Source of the DNA: an uncultured delta proteobacterium | Lineage (GTDB): Bacteria; Desulfobacterota; Binatia; UBA9968 | Direction: 5' to 3' | Assembly (NCBI GenBank): GCA_963840855.1 | Contig: CAWJBB010000061.1 | Coordinates: forward strand, 1-64,000 | DNA: 64,000 bases | Shown: positions 50,168 to 54,507 of the stretch, piece after piece | Numbering within the stretch: position 1 is the stretch's first letter | Layout of the letters: each line of letters begins with the position of its first letter | Made by a program: the position numbers and the translations under genes | Notes under the pieces: model-generated | Told to the model about the DNA's origin: nothing | Databases searched by the model: none | The model's input: only the letters and a program-made list of their open reading frames with translations

Positions 50168-51721
50168 ATGAAGCGTTCAATAATCGTGGGCCTAATTTGC
50201 TTATGGGGCATGTCAGTTCTCCCGGCACGAGGCGCATCGGTGCAGCCCAAGAGGGGCGGAACCATCACCCTCGCCACGCAGAACGATCTGGTTACGATGA
50301 ATCCGATGGTGCGAACGGCGTCAACAGAGAGGCTCATGCGCATGTTGATGTTCGATTCTCTGCTCGGCAGCGATCTTCAGGGAAAAGTGCAACCTAATCT
50401 CGCTGAGTCATGGGAAACCTCCTCGGACGGAAAAATTTACACCTTTCGCCTGCGCAAGGCGGTCATGTTTCACAACGGTAAGGAATTGTCGTCGGAAGAC
50501 GTCAAGTTTTCCATGAACTACACCATGGAGCCCAAGAATGGCGCCTACGGCTTCTCGCAACTCAGTTTAGTGGAGCGCGTGGAGGCGCCGGAAAAGTATC
50601 TACTGCGGGTGTACCTTAAAAAGCCGAGCGCGGTATTATTGTCGTCGTTGGCGGGCATCCAATCCTTTCCCGTCATCCCTAACGGCTCTCTCGAGGCGGG
50701 GCCCATGAAACCCACACAGTTCCCACCCGGGACCGGCCCCTTCAGGTTCGTCGAGTGGTTACCTGCCCAACGAGTGGTTTTTCAGCGTTTTGAGAATCAT
50801 TGGGGCCATAAAGCGTACGTGGACAGATTGGTGATCCGACCGATTGCCGACACGACCGTGCGTTTTACGGCTTTGCAAGCCGGAGACGTAGATATCGTAG
50901 AACGCACTCCCTACGAGTGGATGAAGCAGGTGGTCGAAGGCAAAGTCAAAGGCATCGGATCAGTCAAGGCCGCCACCGCGGGCTACCGTCGATTGATTTT
51001 CAATTTAACGCAGCCGCCTTTGAATAACAAAAAATTACGAGAGGCGATTGCCTATGCCGTCGATAAGAAGGAGATGCTCGATGCTGCGTATATGGGGTTC
51101 GGCGAGCCCACCGATCAGAAATATCCCAAAGACAACATGTGGCACGTTAAGGGAGCGCGCACGTATGCCCAGGATTTGAATAAAGCCAGGTCGCTTTTGA
51201 AAGAGGCGGACTACAAAGGCGAGGTCCTCGAAGTGCTTGCCGACCGGGCGCCTTTTCAGAGCACGGAAGTAACCATACTCCAGAGTCAACTCAAAAAGAT
51301 CGGCGTCGCGGTCAAGCTGAATATGGTCGAGTGGAGCGCCTATCGAGAACTACAGCGCAAGGGTAATTTTCATCTAATGATGTATGGTGGCAGCATTGAT
51401 CCGGATCCGTCTCTAACCTATGGGCCGGATTTTGGATGCGAGCAGGACCTCAAAAGCCGCAGCTCCAACATGCCGGGTTACTGCAACAAGGAAATCGACG
51501 CCCTGCTGGCGAAGGCGGAGTTGGAATCGGACAACAAGAAACGGAAGGAGCTTTTCGATCGGATCATTATCAAGATCAGCGACGACTTGCCGGAGCTACC
51601 GATCGGCTATGTGCCTCGATTTTACACGTTCCGCGACTATGTGAAGGGCTTCACCGTCAACGATGAAGGGGAATTTCAGTTCTATGGCGGAGGGCTGAGT
51701 CACGCCTGGTTGGACAAATAG
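50168..51721 (+). CDS. ABC transporter substrate-binding protein family 5 (DppA/OppA-like)
   Basis: PKRGGT, PNLAESWE.S.DG..YTFRLRK.V.FHNG, GTGPFRFVEW, LQAGDVD; RBS GGAGG. Confidence 0.95.
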   Translation: MKRSIIVGLICLWGMSVLPARGASVQPKRGGTITLATQNDLVTMNPMVRTASTERLMRMLMFDSLLGSDLQGKVQPNLAESWETSSDGKIYTFRLRKAVMFHNGKELSSEDVKFSMNYTMEPKNGAYGFSQLSLVERVEAPEKYLLRVYLKKPSAVLLSSLAGIQSFPVIPNGSLEAGPMKPTQFPPGTGPFRFVEWLPAQRVVFQRFENHWGHKAYVDRLVIRPIADTTVRFTALQAGDVDIVERTPYEWMKQVVEGKVKGIGSVKAATAGYRRLIFNLTQPPLNNKKLREAIAYAVDKKEMLDAAYMGFGEPTDQKYPKDNMWHVKGARTYAQDLNKARSLLKEADYKGEVLEVLADRAPFQSTEVTILQSQLKKIGVAVKLNMVEWSAYRELQRKGNFHLMMYGGSIDPDPSLTYGPDFGCEQDLKSRSSNMPGYCNKEIDALLAKAELESDNKKRKELFDRIIIKISDDLPELPIGYVPRFYTFRDYVKGFTVNDEGEFQFYGGGLSHAWLDK

Positions 51722-51807
51722 GAAACACTGGAGCCCCAACACCCCGAACAAAACTCGTGTCAAAAGGCACCGAGACGCAACAAACGGAGAAGCGATATCA
51801 CGAAACA

Positions 51808-51985
51808 TATATTCTTGGGCTGAAGCCATCAAAATCTTCCGTCCCAAAACCGTCATCATCCACCATCACGACAACTGGCAGGTGCCATTTTCAGTGGAGA
51901 TCGCGATCGAACCGCAAACGGGTCCAGCGGATGGAGGTCGGAATCAAGTGGTCCGATGGGAATATCAAAGTCATCAATCAGGGGC
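51808..51985 (+). pseudogene. C-terminal remnant of a metallo-beta-lactamase-fold hydrolase
   Basis: WAEAIKIFRPKTVIIHHHDNWQVPFS resembles the l.Pk.viP.Hyd C-terminal strand of MBL-fold (UlaG-like) proteins; no N-terminal part is present. Confidence 0.45.
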
Positions 51986-51993
51986 AATGTGCG

Positions 51994-52377
51994 ATGAAGA
52001 CAAAAGGCGAAATCGAAGCCGAGATCAGTCAAGCCATCGTCCAATTCGAGATCGATTACATGGGCCGCGGCCCGAAAGAAACGCGCACCCATATCGTCGA
52101 AGACTTGGTTGTCGTTCGCCTCAAAGGCGTTTTGACCCCGGCGGAAGAACAATTGACAAAGTCGATCGAGGGCAAAGATCTGGTCAAAAAAATGCGCGCA
52201 ACTCTGATCGACAAAGCGCGCCCGCTTTTGTACCAGGTCGTTGGCGATATCACTGGCACGAAAATTCTCGATCTGCATACCGACATCAGCACGGAATCCG
52301 GTGAACGGGTCTTTGTCTTTTCCCTCGATAACAACCTGCCGAAAGCCGTGCGCGCGCCAAGGGCTCTTGACATATGA
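51994..52377 (+). CDS. DUF2294 (MpsC/YbcI-like) protein
   Basis: KTKGEIEAEIS.AI..FE..YMGRGPKE, LKGVLTPAE..L, LVKKMR..L, LHTDISTESGERVFVFSL. Confidence 0.88.
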   Translation: MKTKGEIEAEISQAIVQFEIDYMGRGPKETRTHIVEDLVVVRLKGVLTPAEEQLTKSIEGKDLVKKMRATLIDKARPLLYQVVGDITGTKILDLHTDISTESGERVFVFSLDNNLPKAVRAPRALDI

Positions 52378-52404
52378 CAGCATCGTTCCTATAAGCTAAG
52401 CCCC

Positions 52405-52504
52405 AAAGTCTGACGATTTCCCGAAGGGTTGGTTGAAATCAATCTAACCAGTCGGGGAATGGGCCGACCTAGGAAACTCAGGTTTCCGGTCGGCCTTTTT
52501 ATTT
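52405..52504 (+). promoter_or_regulatory. Candidate attenuator: bulged hairpin directly followed by an intrinsic terminator
   Basis: ATTTCCCGA(52416-24)/TCGGGGAAT(52452-60), AGGG bulge, TTGGTT/AACCAG; terminator GGCCGACC..GGAAAC-TCAG-GTTTCC-GGTCGGCC-TTTTTATTT. Confidence 0.65.
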
Positions 52505-52551
52505 GGCTCAAGCTGTCTTCAAAGGCGCTAGTTAACAAGGGAGGTGTGAAC

Positions 52552-52710
52552 ATGAACTCTACGATTTACGTGATCACCGGCGTGTTCCTCGTCATCTTGG
52601 GCGTCGTTGGTATCTACTACATTCGCCAAGCACCCGGATTAGCTCTCTTCGCTTCGATGGGTCTGCTTGCGGGAATCGCGATGATAGCCAAGGCCAACAA
52701 GAAATTCTGA
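52552..52710 (+). CDS. 52-aa small membrane protein (two hydrophobic helices)
   Basis: Strong RBS AAGGGAGGTG; MNSTIYVITGVFLVILGVVGIYYIRQAPGLALFASMGLLAGIAMIAKANKKF. Confidence 0.7.
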   Translation: MNSTIYVITGVFLVILGVVGIYYIRQAPGLALFASMGLLAGIAMIAKANKKF

Positions 52711-52859
52711 GTTAGACGCGCACCGCATTGACCGCTGTCTCTTTTGCTTTTCGGGACTGCGTGCGATGTATCGAGCGCGGCAAAGATTTGGCAGAAGATC
52801 GTGATTCTGGATAGCCTTGCTATTCGCGGCGACACGCTTCTCGGAACACGGGTCGATCT

Positions 52860-52914
52860 GTTCCAATAGTTCCAATCGTTCCAGCCGTTCCAAACGTTTT
52901 GAACGCTTTGAACC
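52860..52914. repeat. 9-nt GTTCCA / TTGAAC tandem repeat
   Basis: gttccaata gttccaatc gttccagcc gttccaaac gttttgaac gctttgaac. Confidence 0.75.
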
Positions 52915-52929
52915 TAATTTATGCGCCCG

Positions 52930-54507
52930 TCAGCTCATCTGCTCCTTCACTTGATATTTCCCCTCCCCGTCTTGCGTAATCTTTCCCTCTTGATGCAGCT
53001 GGCCCACGGCCGTGGCGATGGCCCGATATTCCACTTGCGGGAATTGATCCAGTAGATCGGCGAAGAAGCAGTGGGAGTTTTTAAGAGCCGCGAGAATTTT
53101 CTCCGATAGCGTCTCGACAGTTTCAGATCGCTTTGCCTCGGCTCTTTCCTTCGCGGGCTCAGCGACTTCGCCCAGGTAGTTATTCAAATTCACTTTGCCT
53201 TGATTGAAATAAACGATCCGGTTGTAGCGGCTGCGCGGCACGTCGTCGGGAATCGTCGCGTCGATGCCCATCTTGGCCGTGGTCGGAATGCGCCCCGGAG
53301 TCGGTACCAGCGACGGGTCTAATGGTTTCGAGCGCGCGTTGGAAACGATCAATACGTCTTTGTCCGCCTGAACACGGGTGGCGATCGCCCACTCGACGTC
53401 CGTGGGATCGAAAACGTCTATATCATCATCGACGATGGTGACATGCTTGATATCCGCGATGGAAAGCAAAGCCATGATGGCGTTTTTGCCGTCACCCGGA
53501 ACCTTCTTGATCGCCGCAACGATATGCCAGTGACAGCAGCCGCCGGGAGTCACGTTGACCGCCGTCGCCTGCACGCCCGCTTCGTGCAACACGCGCCACG
53601 CGGCGGCCTCGTAAATCGGCGCTGACATCCAGATATTCTCCCACGGCATGTGCAGCGCGTAGTAGATTGGGTCTTTGCGGTGCATGATCGCTTTGATCCG
53701 CACATGCGGGTTTTTGTGAATGCCGCCCATGAGTCGGTTGAATTCACAAAACGGCCCTTCGGGGTAGACCCAGCCGTCGGGAAGAATTTCTCCTTCCAGG
53801 ACGATTTCCGCGTCGGCGATACAGGGAACCGGAATCGTTTCGCCGTCGGCTAATTGGAGCGGCTCACCGCGCAGGCCGCCGGCGAAGGTAAGCTCGTTAA
53901 CGCCCAGATTGGCCTTGAAGGTGGAAGCGACGCACTCGTAGGGATGGGTGCCGATGGAGATGGAAATCGGCAGCGGCTTTTTCTTTGCCATGGCCCGCTC
54001 GGTAAACCTGCGCAAGTTATTGGGCGTGACGATGTCGATGCCCGTCACGTTCTTTTCTTTGAGCATCAGCCGATACATGCCGGCGTTCATGCCGTGCTCG
54101 GGATCTTCGGCGATGACGACTCCGCCGGTGATCATAGGCCCGCCGTCCATGATGGAAAAGATCGGCACCGGCAGATCGAAGACGTTGACCTCGTTCTTCG
54201 TCAAAATCACGTCTTTGACCGGCGCGCGCTTGACGCGCTCGGGTTCGATCGGGTGATCCATCGCGTTGCGCAATTTCTCTTCGATCTTTTCGTAGGGAAC
54301 GCCCATGCCGATGGCCAAACGATTGCGCGATTGCAGCAGTCCGGAAACCACCGGCATCGAGTAGCTGCGGACCTTCTTGAAAAGCAGGGCCTTTTCGGCC
54401 TGCGCCACTAGGGCCGCGATATCGCGCGCGTCCGTAGGTTTGGCGATCTCAATCAGCTCGTCACTCTTCGTCAAATCGGCCAAGTAGCTTCTAAAACTCG
54501 CCGCCAT
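52930..54507 (-). CDS. UbiD-family (prFMN-dependent) decarboxylase with a C-terminal winged-helix-like extension
   Basis: DLPVP....DGGP.IT, NAGMYR, AEIVLEG, EGPFCEF, VDDDIDVFD..DVEWAIATR, LDPS, KMGIDAT. Confidence 0.92.
   Translation of the reverse strand: MAASFRSYLADLTKSDELIEIAKPTDARDIAALVAQAEKALLFKKVRSYSMPVVSGLLQSRNRLAIGMGVPYEKIEEKLRNAMDHPIEPERVKRAPVKDVILTKNEVNVFDLPVPIFSIMDGGPMITGGVVIAEDPEHGMNAGMYRLMLKEKNVTGIDIVTPNNLRRFTERAMAKKKPLPISISIGTHPYECVASTFKANLGVNELTFAGGLRGEPLQLADGETIPVPCIADAEIVLEGEILPDGWVYPEGPFCEFNRLMGGIHKNPHVRIKAIMHRKDPIYYALHMPWENIWMSAPIYEAAAWRVLHEAGVQATAVNVTPGGCCHWHIVAAIKKVPGDGKNAIMALLSIADIKHVTIVDDDIDVFDPTDVEWAIATRVQADKDVLIVSNARSKPLDPSLVPTPGRIPTTAKMGIDATIPDDVPRSRYNRIVYFNQGKVNLNNYLGEVAEPAKERAEAKRSETVETLSEKILAALKNSHCFFADLLDQFPQVEYRAIATAVGQLHQEGKITQDGEGKYQVKEQMS

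What the first reader, a model, noticed from the sequence alone, without database searches (positions are those of the whole stretch)
51994..52710. DUF2294 gene, switchable RNA element and 52-aa membrane protein: candidate riboswitch or protein-dependent attenuator
Seen: about 40 nt after the DUF2294 stop is a hairpin with a 4-nt AGGG bulge (52416-52460), followed one base later by a strong terminator (52462-52504). A small ORF with an excellent RBS starts about 50 nt further on, with no obvious promoter in between. The terminator 5' arm CCGAC (52464-68) can alternatively pair with GTCGG (52451-55) in the first hairpin. CTGAC (52410-14) can also pair with either GTCGG copy. These folds are mutually exclusive. 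Established: DUF2294 (MpsC/YbcI) has no known function and accompanies MpsAB/DabAB bicarbonate transporters, which are absent here. Inference: DUF2294 may be a ligand-sensing RNA-binding antiterminator acting on this element, or the RNA is an ion/CO2-responsive switch controlling the micro-protein.
Basis: partly seen in the sequence, partly recalled or inferred. Interest (0 to 1): 0.75.

Follow-up and report, generated by a model that had tools for sequence, protein, structure and literature searches.

The report
New leader RNA tied to DUF2294
The hairpin and terminator after this DUF2294 gene belong to a widespread structured leader RNA that is absent from the Rfam catalogue, nearly always sits beside DUF2294 genes, and most likely gates transcription of the next gene.

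Summary
A long hairpin (52416-52460) abuts a strong terminator (52461-52504), and a conserved 52-aa two-helix membrane protein gene follows (52552-52710).

It is not a chance fold. A covariance model finds 50 strong copies in 39 of 90 genomes of the same bacterial family. A broader model finds relatives next to DUF2294 genes in many phyla. On 83 aligned copies, 88.6% of cells pair and 23 of 25 pairs show compensatory changes.

Three Rfam scans found no matching family.

Each copy has its own sigma-70-like promoter. In the window it overlaps the end of the DUF2294 gene. So the RNA is a 5' leader, not a 3' UTR.

Downstream genes are mostly GTP-PEPCK. Others include purC, isocitrate dehydrogenase, SbtA and NuoL-like transporters, an ABC permease and small membrane proteins.

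A second proposed pairing is not.

Best reading: a terminator/antiterminator attenuator, with the neighbouring DUF2294 protein as the likely effector. A protein-independent riboswitch remains a serious rival, because a few genomes keep the RNA with no DUF2294 gene found. The signal is unknown; inorganic carbon is the leading guess.

The parts
51994..52377 (+). DUF2294/MpsC-family gene (127 aa), the proposed partner or effector gene
   Evidence: PF10057 at E 6.9e-38. It is the only PF10057 gene found in the genome. AlphaFold model has pLDDT 95.2.
52367..52395 (+). Predicted sigma-70-type promoter of the leader: -35 TTGACA 52367-52372, 17-nt spacer, -10 TATAAG 52390-52395. It overlaps the last codons of the DUF2294 gene.
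   Evidence: Read from sequence. The same TTGACN, 16-18 nt, TAnnnn arrangement is upstream of 44 of 49 family copies that have enough upstream sequence. No transcription start was measured.
52406..52415 (+). Conserved 5' flank of the motif (UG..GAU type; GGAAGAY in other phyla)
   Evidence: Model match 52406-52502: R1 93.3 bits, R2 61.1 bits. Alignments A3 and A9.
52416..52460 (+). Sensor hairpin: P1 (52416-24 with 52452-60), 2x2 internal loop AG/AG, P2 (52427-35 with 52440-49)
   Evidence: Fold. Covariation: 12 of 16 hairpin pairs have compensatory changes in 50 copies, and 16 of 16 in 83 copies.
52451..52468 (+). Candidate antiterminator: GUCG(G) 52451-55 pairing with (C)CGAC 52464-68. It is mutually exclusive with both P1 and the terminator.
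   Evidence: Across 83 copies the four core pairs are standard pairs in 78, 74, 75 and 61 sequences, with C-G replacing U-A in 12 cells at each of two pairs. Covariation score is 0.30 against 0.22 for shuffles (0 of 500 reach it) and at most 0.14 for slid controls. In the window it costs 19 kcal/mol more than the terminator fold.
52461..52504 (+). Intrinsic terminator: 9-bp conserved outer stem, 6-bp inner stem, U5AU3 tail
   Evidence: Fold. The terminator helix is 96.7% paired in 83 copies, with 7 of 9 pairs changed on both sides. The simple scan did not flag it.
52539..52544 (+). Ribosome-binding site GGGAGG, 7 nt before the ATG
   Evidence: Sequence.
52552..52710 (+). Gene for a 52-aa protein with two predicted hydrophobic helices; the gene controlled here
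   Evidence: 40 protein clusters at 67-100% identity, nearly all 52 aa, with no Pfam or NCBIfam family. A homolog follows 8 of 50 family copies, 7 of them about 50 nt after the model end.

Best explanation
The element is the 5' leader of a short transcription unit and belongs to a widespread family of structured RNAs that is not in Rfam.

Proposed mechanism:
1. Transcription starts at a promoter that overlaps the end of the DUF2294 gene.
2. The RNA folds into a two-helix sensor hairpin with purine-rich internal loops, directly followed by an intrinsic terminator.
3. By default, transcription stops before the 52-aa membrane protein gene.
4. An effector shifts the RNA to a fold in which the 3' strand of the hairpin pairs with the 5' arm of the terminator, or in which the conserved flanks capture that arm. 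The polymerase then reads through.

The most probable effector is the DUF2294 protein encoded next door, acting as a ligand-responsive RNA-binding regulator in the manner of HutP or PyrR.

Shown here: the structure and its covariation, the promoter-like sequence, the terminator, the gene neighbourhood and the co-occurrence with DUF2294.

Inferred: that termination is regulated, that DUF2294 binds the RNA, and what the signal is. Inorganic carbon is the leading guess, based on the gene content.
For: Structure:
- 50 strong copies in 39 of 90 genomes of the family.
- On these, 90.6% of cells pair, 15 of 25 pairs are changed on both sides, and 0 of 500 shuffles reach the observed values.
- On 83 copies from many phyla, 88.6% pair against 67.4% for shuffles. 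23 of 25 pairs are compensatory. The covariation score is 0.653 against 0.263 for shuffles and at most 0.168 for slid controls.

Leader position:
- TTGACN, 16-18 nt, TAnnnn lies upstream of 44 of 49 family copies.
- It lies upstream of 45 of 83 broad copies, against 224 of 16262 control windows. Most copies without it are second units of tandem arrays.
- The next start codon lies 5-50 nt after the U-tract in many loci, with no promoter seen by eye in the window.

Link to DUF2294:
- 38 of 50 family copies start 29-39 nt after a DUF2294 stop.
- 56 of 80 DUF2294 loci from many phyla carry the motif on the same strand within 255 nt after the stop, and 61 of 80 within 3 kb.
- In an RNA-first metagenome sample, 30 of 47 evaluable copies have a DUF2294 gene ending 43-171 nt upstream.
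- Co-occurrence in the 90 family genomes: both 36, RNA only 3, protein only 6, neither 45.
- In a phylum sample of 150 other genomes, 5 have DUF2294 and 3 have the RNA, with 2 shared. Two more DUF2294 loci show weaker motif hits with filters off.
- In 5 genomes of other phyla, 11 of 11 copies lie within about 1 kb of a DUF2294 gene.
- In some loci the gene is divergent from the motif (L129, L143, G354, G280). That fits a regulator gene beside its target and does not fit a 3' UTR element.

Switching:
- The antiterminator helix is supported.
- The default fold is 19 kcal/mol more stable. A protein effector fits that gap better than a small ligand.

Background, from passages of PMC6689103: in S. 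aureus, mpsC is dispensable for MpsAB transport, and mpsA expression falls at 5% CO2. This leaves room for a regulatory role.
Against: - No experiment shows that the terminator is regulated or that DUF2294 binds RNA.
- The DUF2294 model is an alpha/beta sandwich with no clear relative. Best Foldseek E is 6.4e-3 (H-NOX, Bet3, YslB), and best VIA Z is 6.9 among mixed folds. It is not a recognised RNA-binding fold.
- Its invariant residues (E51, R68, D97) look more like a ligand pocket than an RNA-binding surface.
- Three genomes keep the RNA with no DUF2294 gene found: G072 (88% complete; the gene is deleted but the promoter, leader and small ORF are kept), G131 (91% complete) and G042 (84% complete; the copy sits 100 nt from a contig end).
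- 16 of 47 RNA-first copies have no DUF2294 gene nearby, and 2 of 7 copies in Planctomycetota genomes lie elsewhere in the genome.
- The antiterminator is short (4-5 bp). Its excess over shuffles is modest (73.1% against 68.0% paired), and related sequences can beat shuffles without any structure (tool caveat).
- The genomes compared are kin and are not independent.
- R2 was built from 35 of the loci in which it was later counted.
Confidence: 0.5

Rival explanations
1. A protein-independent riboswitch. The hairpin, with its conserved purine-rich internal loops and flanks, is an aptamer for a small molecule or ion related to PEPCK or inorganic-carbon metabolism. DUF2294 is only a functionally related neighbour.
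For: - The layout is that of a classic riboswitch: promoter, conserved aptamer with covariation, terminator as expression platform, then the gene.
- The conserved unpaired or non-canonical nucleotides (GGAAG and AAGCC flanks, AG/nG loop) could form a pocket.
- Full units occur in tandem, up to 4 in L129, as known for some riboswitches (recalled).
- The RNA is present without any DUF2294 gene found in G072, G131 and G042.
- 16 of 47 RNA-first copies are not next to DUF2294, yet they precede the same kinds of genes, such as PEPCK and purC.
- DUF2294 has no recognised RNA-binding fold.
Against: - Tight synteny with one protein family across many phyla, in both co-directional and divergent arrangements, is unusual for riboswitches.
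- The hairpin has no multi-helix junction.
- In the window it is 11-19 kcal/mol more stable than the alternative fold. That is a large gap for a small ligand to overcome.
- No Rfam family matches.
Confidence: 0.3
2. A free-standing small RNA of about 100 nt, transcribed from its own promoter and ended by its own terminator. It would act in trans, for example as a protein-binding or base-pairing sRNA. The downstream ORF would be expressed only by leakage.
For: Promoter, structured RNA and strong terminator together form a complete small transcription unit. The predicted default is termination. The conserved single-stranded 5' flank could serve as a seed.
Against: - Downstream ORFs start 5-50 nt after the U-tract without a promoter of their own, and they change from locus to locus while the RNA stays.
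- Tandem units each carry a terminator.
- The antiterminator pairing is conserved.
Confidence: 0.1
3. An ordinary terminator and 3'-end stabiliser of the DUF2294 mRNA, conserved only because it sits beside a conserved gene.
For: It starts 29-39 nt after the DUF2294 stop in 38 of 50 family copies. The minimum-energy fold is hairpin plus terminator.
Against: - 12 of 50 family copies, and many copies elsewhere, are not preceded by DUF2294. Some are divergent from it.
- A promoter-like sequence lies between the gene and the element.
- Sequence and structure are conserved across phyla far beyond what a terminator needs.
Confidence: 0.05

Closest known systems
HutP and the hut operon terminator of Bacillus subtilis (recalled, not tested here)
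   Same: A small regulator gene is the first gene. It is followed by an intercistronic terminator structure that the ligand-activated protein is proposed to act on, so that the downstream genes are transcribed.
   Different: DUF2294 shows no sequence or clear fold relation to HutP. Here the RNA has its own promoter. RNA binding by DUF2294 has not been shown.
PyrR attenuators of the pyr operon (recalled; the Rfam PyrR family did not match)
   Same: Repeated hairpin-plus-terminator units sit in and around the regulator's own operon. The logic involves three structures: binding hairpin, antiterminator and terminator.
   Different: The RNA sequence and structure differ. In the PyrR system the protein promotes termination; the direction of control here is unknown.
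Terminator-type riboswitches such as the Na+ (DUF1646 motif) and Li+ (nhaA-I motif) classes (features recalled)
   Same: A hairpin-type aptamer with conserved internal loops abuts an intrinsic terminator, upstream of transporter and metabolic genes.
   Different: No match to these or any other of the 4227 Rfam families at E up to 1-10. Strong synteny with one protein family. Ligand unknown.
MpsABC / DabAB inorganic-carbon system (PMC6689103 passages; bioRxiv 10.64898/2026.09.08.750065 passages)
   Same: The protein partner is the MpsC/DUF2294 family. Some motif copies precede NuoL-like (MpsA/DabB-like) and SbtA bicarbonate transporter genes.
   Different: DabA was not found in this genome. Most motif copies precede PEPCK rather than transporters. 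No RNA element is mentioned in the passages read.

Membership tests
Any Rfam 15 family (including DUF1646 Na+, nhaA-I Li+, PyrR, ykkC, mepA) | Covariance-model match at or near the family's gathering score | tested here: not met
   Window 51500-53200 at E up to 10: best overlapping match is SorY at 16.7 bits against a gathering score of 111, covering the terminator only. 12 relatives' loci at E up to 1: 0 matches. 15 loci from other phyla: only a tRNA.
Intrinsic (Rho-independent) terminator | G+C-rich stem-loop directly followed by a U-tract | tested here: met
   A 9+6 bp stem followed by U5AU3. The helix is 96.7% paired in 83 copies. The simple consensus scan did not list it.
Riboswitch / cis-acting attenuator (generic) | Conserved structured domain with covariation in a 5' leader | tested here: met
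   for covariation. for promoter-like sequences upstream. The transcription start was not measured.
Riboswitch / cis-acting attenuator (generic) | Mutually exclusive terminator and antiterminator folds | tested here: inconclusive
   The antiterminator helix beats shuffles and slid controls, but it is short and its margin is modest. It is energetically disfavoured in the window.
Riboswitch (strict sense) | Direct binding of a small ligand without protein | not testable with these tools
   Needs in-line probing or ITC.
Protein-dependent attenuation system (HutP/PyrR/BglG kind) | Regulator gene genetically linked to its RNA target | tested here: met
   56 of 80 DUF2294 loci. 30 of 47 RNA-first copies. 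Co-occurrence 36/3/6/45 in 90 genomes.
Protein-dependent attenuation system (HutP/PyrR/BglG kind) | Regulator has a demonstrable RNA-binding fold or activity | tested here: inconclusive
   No clear structural relative: Foldseek E at best 6.4e-3, VIA Z at most 6.9. No solved homolog by sequence.
PF10057 MpsC/DUF2294 (the protein) | Pfam profile match above the gathering score | tested here: met
   129.6 bits against a cut-off of 23.
ANTAR-type two-hexaloop RNA target | Two short hairpins with hexaloops, the second overlapping the terminator | not tested
   Considered from memory only. P2 loops here are variable in length and sequence.

The most novel reading that the evidence does not exclude
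DUF2294/MpsC is a ligand-sensing RNA-binding regulator of a new kind, and this RNA is its operator. Together they form a widespread inorganic-carbon (CO2/bicarbonate) or anaplerotic-state sensing circuit. Across Desulfobacterota-like bacteria, Planctomycetota, Omnitrophota, Nitrospirota and others, the circuit would gate PEPCK, purC, isocitrate dehydrogenase, SbtA, DabB-like and ABC transporters and small membrane proteins.
Probability: 0.2. Interest if true: 0.9.

Novelty: new member of a known kind. Interest (0 to 1): 0.8.

Why it matters
DUF2294/MpsC is a large protein family with no known function. It has 1548 clusters at 50% identity with E up to 1e-3.

The RNA described here is a structured motif found in many phyla. 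It is absent from Rfam, and I found no paper that links it to DUF2294.

The pairing gives a concrete, testable hypothesis for both: a regulator and its RNA operator, or a new riboswitch class. It points to regulation of GTP-PEPCK and of inorganic-carbon transporters. In the passages read, one preprint says the mechanisms regulating carbonic anhydrase and bicarbonate importer genes in B. subtilis remain to be explored.

The test is simple: an in vitro termination assay with one small protein and a 100-nt RNA.

Tried and rejected
- CTGAC (52410-14) pairing with GTCGG: 46.0% paired against 44.0% for shuffles, and the -1 slide does better at 64.1%. Covariation 0.119 against 0.123, reached by 303 of 500 shuffles. 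Rejected.
- A closing helix between the 5' GG and the CC of the terminator arm, with G.A-type pairs between: both sides are nearly invariant (82 and 60 of 83 G-C), so covariation cannot test it. Left open.
- Mutual information within the 49 distinct family copies only recovered the known pairs plus phylogenetic signal.
- Repeat or mobile-element origin: the element is single-copy in its genome. Rejected.
- Metatranscriptome contigs from 4 RNA runs covered only parts of the DUF2294 coding region (51993-52344) and an unrelated low-complexity stretch. Nothing lay on the leader or the small ORF, so they say nothing about starts, ends or read-through.
- ESM Atlas look-alike search for DUF2294: no usable hit.
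- NCBIfam: no family for DUF2294, the small protein or four neighbouring proteins.
- Literature searches:
  - 'DUF2294' gave 1 unrelated paper (listing).
  - riboswitch + bicarbonate + orphan riboswitch gave 7 papers. The review PMC7266159 mentions bicarbonate only in the name of a transporter family (passages).
  - MpsC / 'RNA motif' gave nothing relevant (listing).
  - riboswitch + PEPCK + Planctomycetes + motif gave 0 papers.
  - The main text of PMC5737381 has 0 occurrences of carboxykinase, pck, DUF2294, purC, isocitrate or bicarbonate. Its supplements, which list the 224 motifs, could not be seen.
  - ybcI + Bacillus subtilis gave 5 papers, none about RNA by title or abstract (listing).
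Full report
**1. What is in the window**

The DUF2294 gene runs from ATG 51994 to its stop at 52377 and matches PF10057 (MpsC) at E 6.9e-38.

Downstream lies a long hairpin. P1 is 52416-24 paired with 52452-60. A symmetric 2x2 internal loop follows (A52425 G52426 opposite A52450 G52451). P2 is 52427-35 paired with 52440-49, with U52443 bulged.

An intrinsic terminator follows directly at 52461-52504. It has a 9-bp outer stem, a 6-bp inner stem and a U5AU3 tail.

The 108 nt around the element fold at -49.7 kcal/mol. Shuffles average -29.9 (z -5.5), and 0 of 200 shuffles fold as well. The whole 175-nt spacer gives z -4.4.

A 52-aa ORF starts at ATG 52552 and ends with its stop at 52710. GGGAGG lies 7 nt upstream.

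The three complementary pentamers it named are present.

The simple consensus scan flagged neither the terminator nor any promoter.

The element and the DUF2294 gene are each single-copy in the 7.1-Mb genome, which is 94% complete. DabA was not found in that genome.

**2. The element is conserved**

DUF2294 orthologs at 66-80% identity occur in 12 of 24 sampled genomes of the same family. They occur in 0 of 16 genomes of the two sister families.

In 11 of these 12 loci, the same hairpin plus terminator follows the stop.

RNAalifold on 12 sequences predicted 21 pairs, 6 of them with compensatory changes.

A covariance model built from them (R1) found matches in 39 of 90 genomes of the family, with 1-4 copies each. 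It found matches in 0 of 33 genomes of the sister families.

The 50 strong copies (above 55 bits; 49 distinct) pair in 90.6% of cells. 15 of 25 pairs have changes on both sides, 12 of these among the 16 hairpin pairs. No shuffle in 500 reaches the observed values, and slid controls are far lower. This alignment is fitted to the model, which leans towards the structure.

One unpublished genome (G009) contributes 1 of 12 rows of A1, 2 of 50 rows of A3 and 2 of 83 rows of A9, and counts once in the tallies.

**3. It is a 5' leader with its own promoter**

38 of the 50 copies start 29-39 nt (mostly 31 nt) after the stop of a DUF2294 gene of about 125 aa. The constant distance has a simple cause. 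A -35 hexamer TTGAC(A/T) overlaps the stop codon and is followed, 16-18 nt later, by a TAnnnn -10 element.

This arrangement is present upstream of 44 of 49 copies with enough upstream sequence, or 48 of 49 if TTCAC is allowed. That count includes copies that do not follow DUF2294.

In the window the -35 is 52367-52372 and the -10 (TATAAG) is 52390-52395. The scan requires a T at the sixth position of the -10, so it missed this one.

In other phyla, a textbook TTGACA...TATAAT lies between the DUF2294 stop and the motif.

Over 83 copies, 45 have such a promoter-like sequence within 75 nt upstream. Only 224 of 16262 control windows do. Most copies without it are the second or later units of tandem arrays.

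No transcription start has been measured.

**4. The family is wide and is not in Rfam**

From 80 DUF2294 loci in named genome records (Planctomycetota, Omnitrophota, Nitrospirota, Nitrospinota, Verrucomicrobiota and others), R1 already hit the region just downstream of the gene in many.

A second model, R2, was built from 35 such hits. It finds the motif within 3 kb in 61 of the 80 loci. In 56 of 80 it is on the same strand, starting within 255 nt after the stop. R2 was built from part of these loci, so the count is partly circular, but many of the hits were new.

Shared features across the family:
- a 5' flank (GGAAGAY in most phyla, a UG..GAU variant in the window's family);
- helix P1;
- a small purine-rich internal loop;
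- a variable helix P2;
- the strand returning through P1;
- a conserved R-U-A-R-G-C-C junction that runs straight into the terminator.

RNAalifold on an independent MAFFT alignment of 36 cores found the outer P1 pairs, with C-G replaced by U-A in 8 sequences.

On 83 copies (A9), 88.6% of cells pair, against 67.4% for shuffles. 23 of 25 pairs have compensatory changes. The covariation score is 0.653, against 0.263 for shuffles (0 of 500 reach it) and at most 0.168 for slid controls.

Rfam 15 scans of the window, of 12 relatives' loci and of 15 loci from other phyla gave no family match.

**5. Tandem units**

In the window's family, 23 of 50 copies are followed within about 15 nt by a second, divergent unit with its own terminator. 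This is my reading of the coordinates. The window has only one unit.

Elsewhere there are two units in L152, L104 and L111, three in L213 and four in L129.

**6. What it precedes**

In the window's family the next gene is:
- an ABC permease (BPD_transp_1) in 18 of 50 copies;
- a DUF2294 paralog in 6;
- a homolog of the window's 52-aa protein in 8, seven of them about 50 nt after the model end;
- a TctC-type binding protein in 2 (L074, L075);
- a membrane-anchored protein of about 200 aa in 2 (L053, L091).

Weaker family members precede a Na_H_Exchanger gene and an 863-aa NuoL-like gene.

Among 43 downstream proteins from the 80 loci, the Pfam tallies are PEPCK_N 9, DUF4914 5, SAICAR_synt 3, BPD_transp_1 2 and MpsC 2. 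Monomeric IDH, Iso_dh, Sbt_1, Proton_antipo_M, Sua5 and chorismate synthase score 1 each, among others. About six proteins belong to a 590-aa family with only sub-threshold PEPCK_ATP/HprK-like similarity.

In an RNA-first sample, 27 of 41 downstream proteins are GTP-PEPCK.

Other instances precede HPF, Usp, M48/HtpX, DUF3309, DUF3795, DUF2062 and HdrA-like genes.

Many of these enzymes and transporters handle CO2 or bicarbonate, but not all do. The signal therefore remains a guess.

**7. Link to DUF2294**

Co-occurrence in the 90 family genomes:

| RNA | DUF2294 | Genomes |
|---|---|---|
| yes | yes | 36 |
| yes | no | 3 |
| no | yes | 6 |
| no | no | 45 |

In an even sample of 150 other genomes of the phylum, 5 have DUF2294 and 3 have the RNA, with 2 shared. 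With filters off, two more of the five DUF2294 loci show the motif downstream at 40 and 27 bits.

In 5 genomes of other phyla, chosen through DUF2294, all 11 motif copies lie within about 1 kb of a DUF2294 gene.

In a sample of 100 other Planctomycetota genomes, 4 have the motif. All 4 have DUF2294, and 5 of their 7 copies are adjacent to it.

An RNA-first pattern scan of metagenome contigs gave 53 copies in 51 loci. Of the 47 copies with at least 450 nt upstream, 30 have a DUF2294 gene ending 43-171 nt upstream on the same strand. One has it downstream, and 16 have none nearby.

In some loci the gene is divergent from the motif (L129, L143, L163, G354, G280).

Against a strict dependence on DUF2294:
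- G072 (88% complete) has lost the gene but keeps its last bases with the promoter, the leader and the small ORF.
- G131 (91% complete) has a copy before an HdrA-like gene, and no DUF2294 was found in that genome.
- G042 (84% complete) has a copy 100 nt from a contig end.

The genomes compared are kin, so these counts overstate independence.

**8. Switching**

The 3' strand of P1 and the 5' arm of the terminator are complementary across the family. In the window these are 52451-54 and 52465-68. The four core pairs are standard pairs in 78, 74, 75 and 61 of 83 copies. C-G replaces U-A in 12 cells at each of two pairs.

Overall, 73.1% of cells pair against 68.0% for shuffles. The covariation score is 0.30 against 0.22 (0 of 500 shuffles reach it), and slid controls give at most 0.14.

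A possible closing interaction between the conserved flanks cannot be tested, because both sides are nearly invariant.

In the window, the hairpin-plus-terminator fold is 19 kcal/mol more stable than the antiterminator fold for the full transcript. It is 11 kcal/mol more stable for the nascent transcript. The default is therefore termination, and read-through needs a strong effector.

**9. The protein**

The AlphaFold model is confident (pLDDT 95.2, pTM 0.86). Its topology is helix, two strands, two helices, two strands, then a short C-terminal helix.

Foldseek finds only weak matches, with best E 6.4e-3 (H-NOX, Bet3/TRAPP, YslB, BcsD).

The wide VIA search gives Z at most 6.9 among unrelated folds. 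RbfA scores 6.1 and V4R-type domains score 4.8-4.9. The tool's own notes place these values in the range of common arrangements.

No solved homolog exists by sequence.

Invariant residues in 55 diverse homologs are E51, R68 and D97, and a G-R-G-P motif is nearly invariant.

The fold neither supports nor excludes RNA binding.

Passages of PMC6689103 state that S. aureus mpsC is separated from mpsAB by a weak terminator and is dispensable for growth and for MpsAB function. They also state that mpsA expression falls at 5% CO2.

**10. The small protein**

It has 40 clusters at 67-100% identity, almost all exactly 52 aa. The source labels that appear are Syntrophales, JGI 'hypothetical protein' and, once, JGI 'uncharacterized membrane protein YesL'. 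It matches no Pfam or NCBIfam family.

By eye it has two hydrophobic helices (about residues 5-23 and 30-46) and a basic C-terminus. It is a real, lineage-restricted gene of unknown function.

**11. Verdict**

The element is a member of a widespread leader-RNA family that is not in Rfam and is genetically coupled to DUF2294.

The best-supported mechanism is transcription attenuation by a terminator/antiterminator switch. DUF2294 is the most likely effector (about 0.5). A protein-independent riboswitch is the main rival (about 0.3).

No paper linking DUF2294, MpsC or YbcI to an RNA element was found in the searches listed.

Noticed in passing
L060 (G072:C32), about 1295-1640 on the minus strand: The DUF2294 gene is deleted apart from its last bases. 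The embedded promoter, the leader RNA (81 bits) and the 52-aa ORF (67% identity) are kept. No PF10057 gene was found in that genome, which is 88% complete.
   Followed up: yes
L129 2276-2775 (minus strand); L213 1090-1402: Four (L129) and three (L213) tandem full units of the motif, each with its own terminator. In L129 the array is divergent from a DUF2294 gene and lies upstream of a DUF2294 paralog about 1.8 kb away.
   Followed up: partly
L108, L110, L138, L150, L153, L164, L187 (genes downstream of the motif): A conserved protein family of about 590 aa with no Pfam or NCBIfam match. It has only sub-threshold similarity to the PEPCK_ATP/HPr-kinase P-loop region. It may be an unrecognised PEPCK-like enzyme.
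   Followed up: partly
window 52367-52377: In relatives, the DUF2294 stop codon is the TGA inside the -35 hexamer TTGAC. In the window, that frame reads on for two more codons, to the TGA at 52375-52377.
   Followed up: yes
window 52855-52900: A short tandem of GTTCCA-type decamers, followed by an inverted GTTTTGAAC/GCTTTGAAC stretch, lies between the small ORF and the convergent UbiD gene. It attracted many unrelated metatranscriptome contigs.
   Followed up: no
L054 1964-2057, L064 1015-1108, L093 3872-3965: In close relatives with the same gene order as the window, a further motif unit lies after the small ORF and before the next gene. The window has none there, and the convergent UbiD gene follows instead.
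   Followed up: partly
window 51931-52038: A weak Rfam S15-leader match (18.2 bits against a gathering score of 39.5, E 0.24) overlaps the DUF2294 start. Most likely chance.
   Followed up: no
window 51993-52344: Short contigs (151-218 nt) from four soil and rhizosphere RNA runs match the DUF2294 coding region at about 90-99% likeness. This hints that orthologs may be transcribed in such samples.
   Followed up: partly
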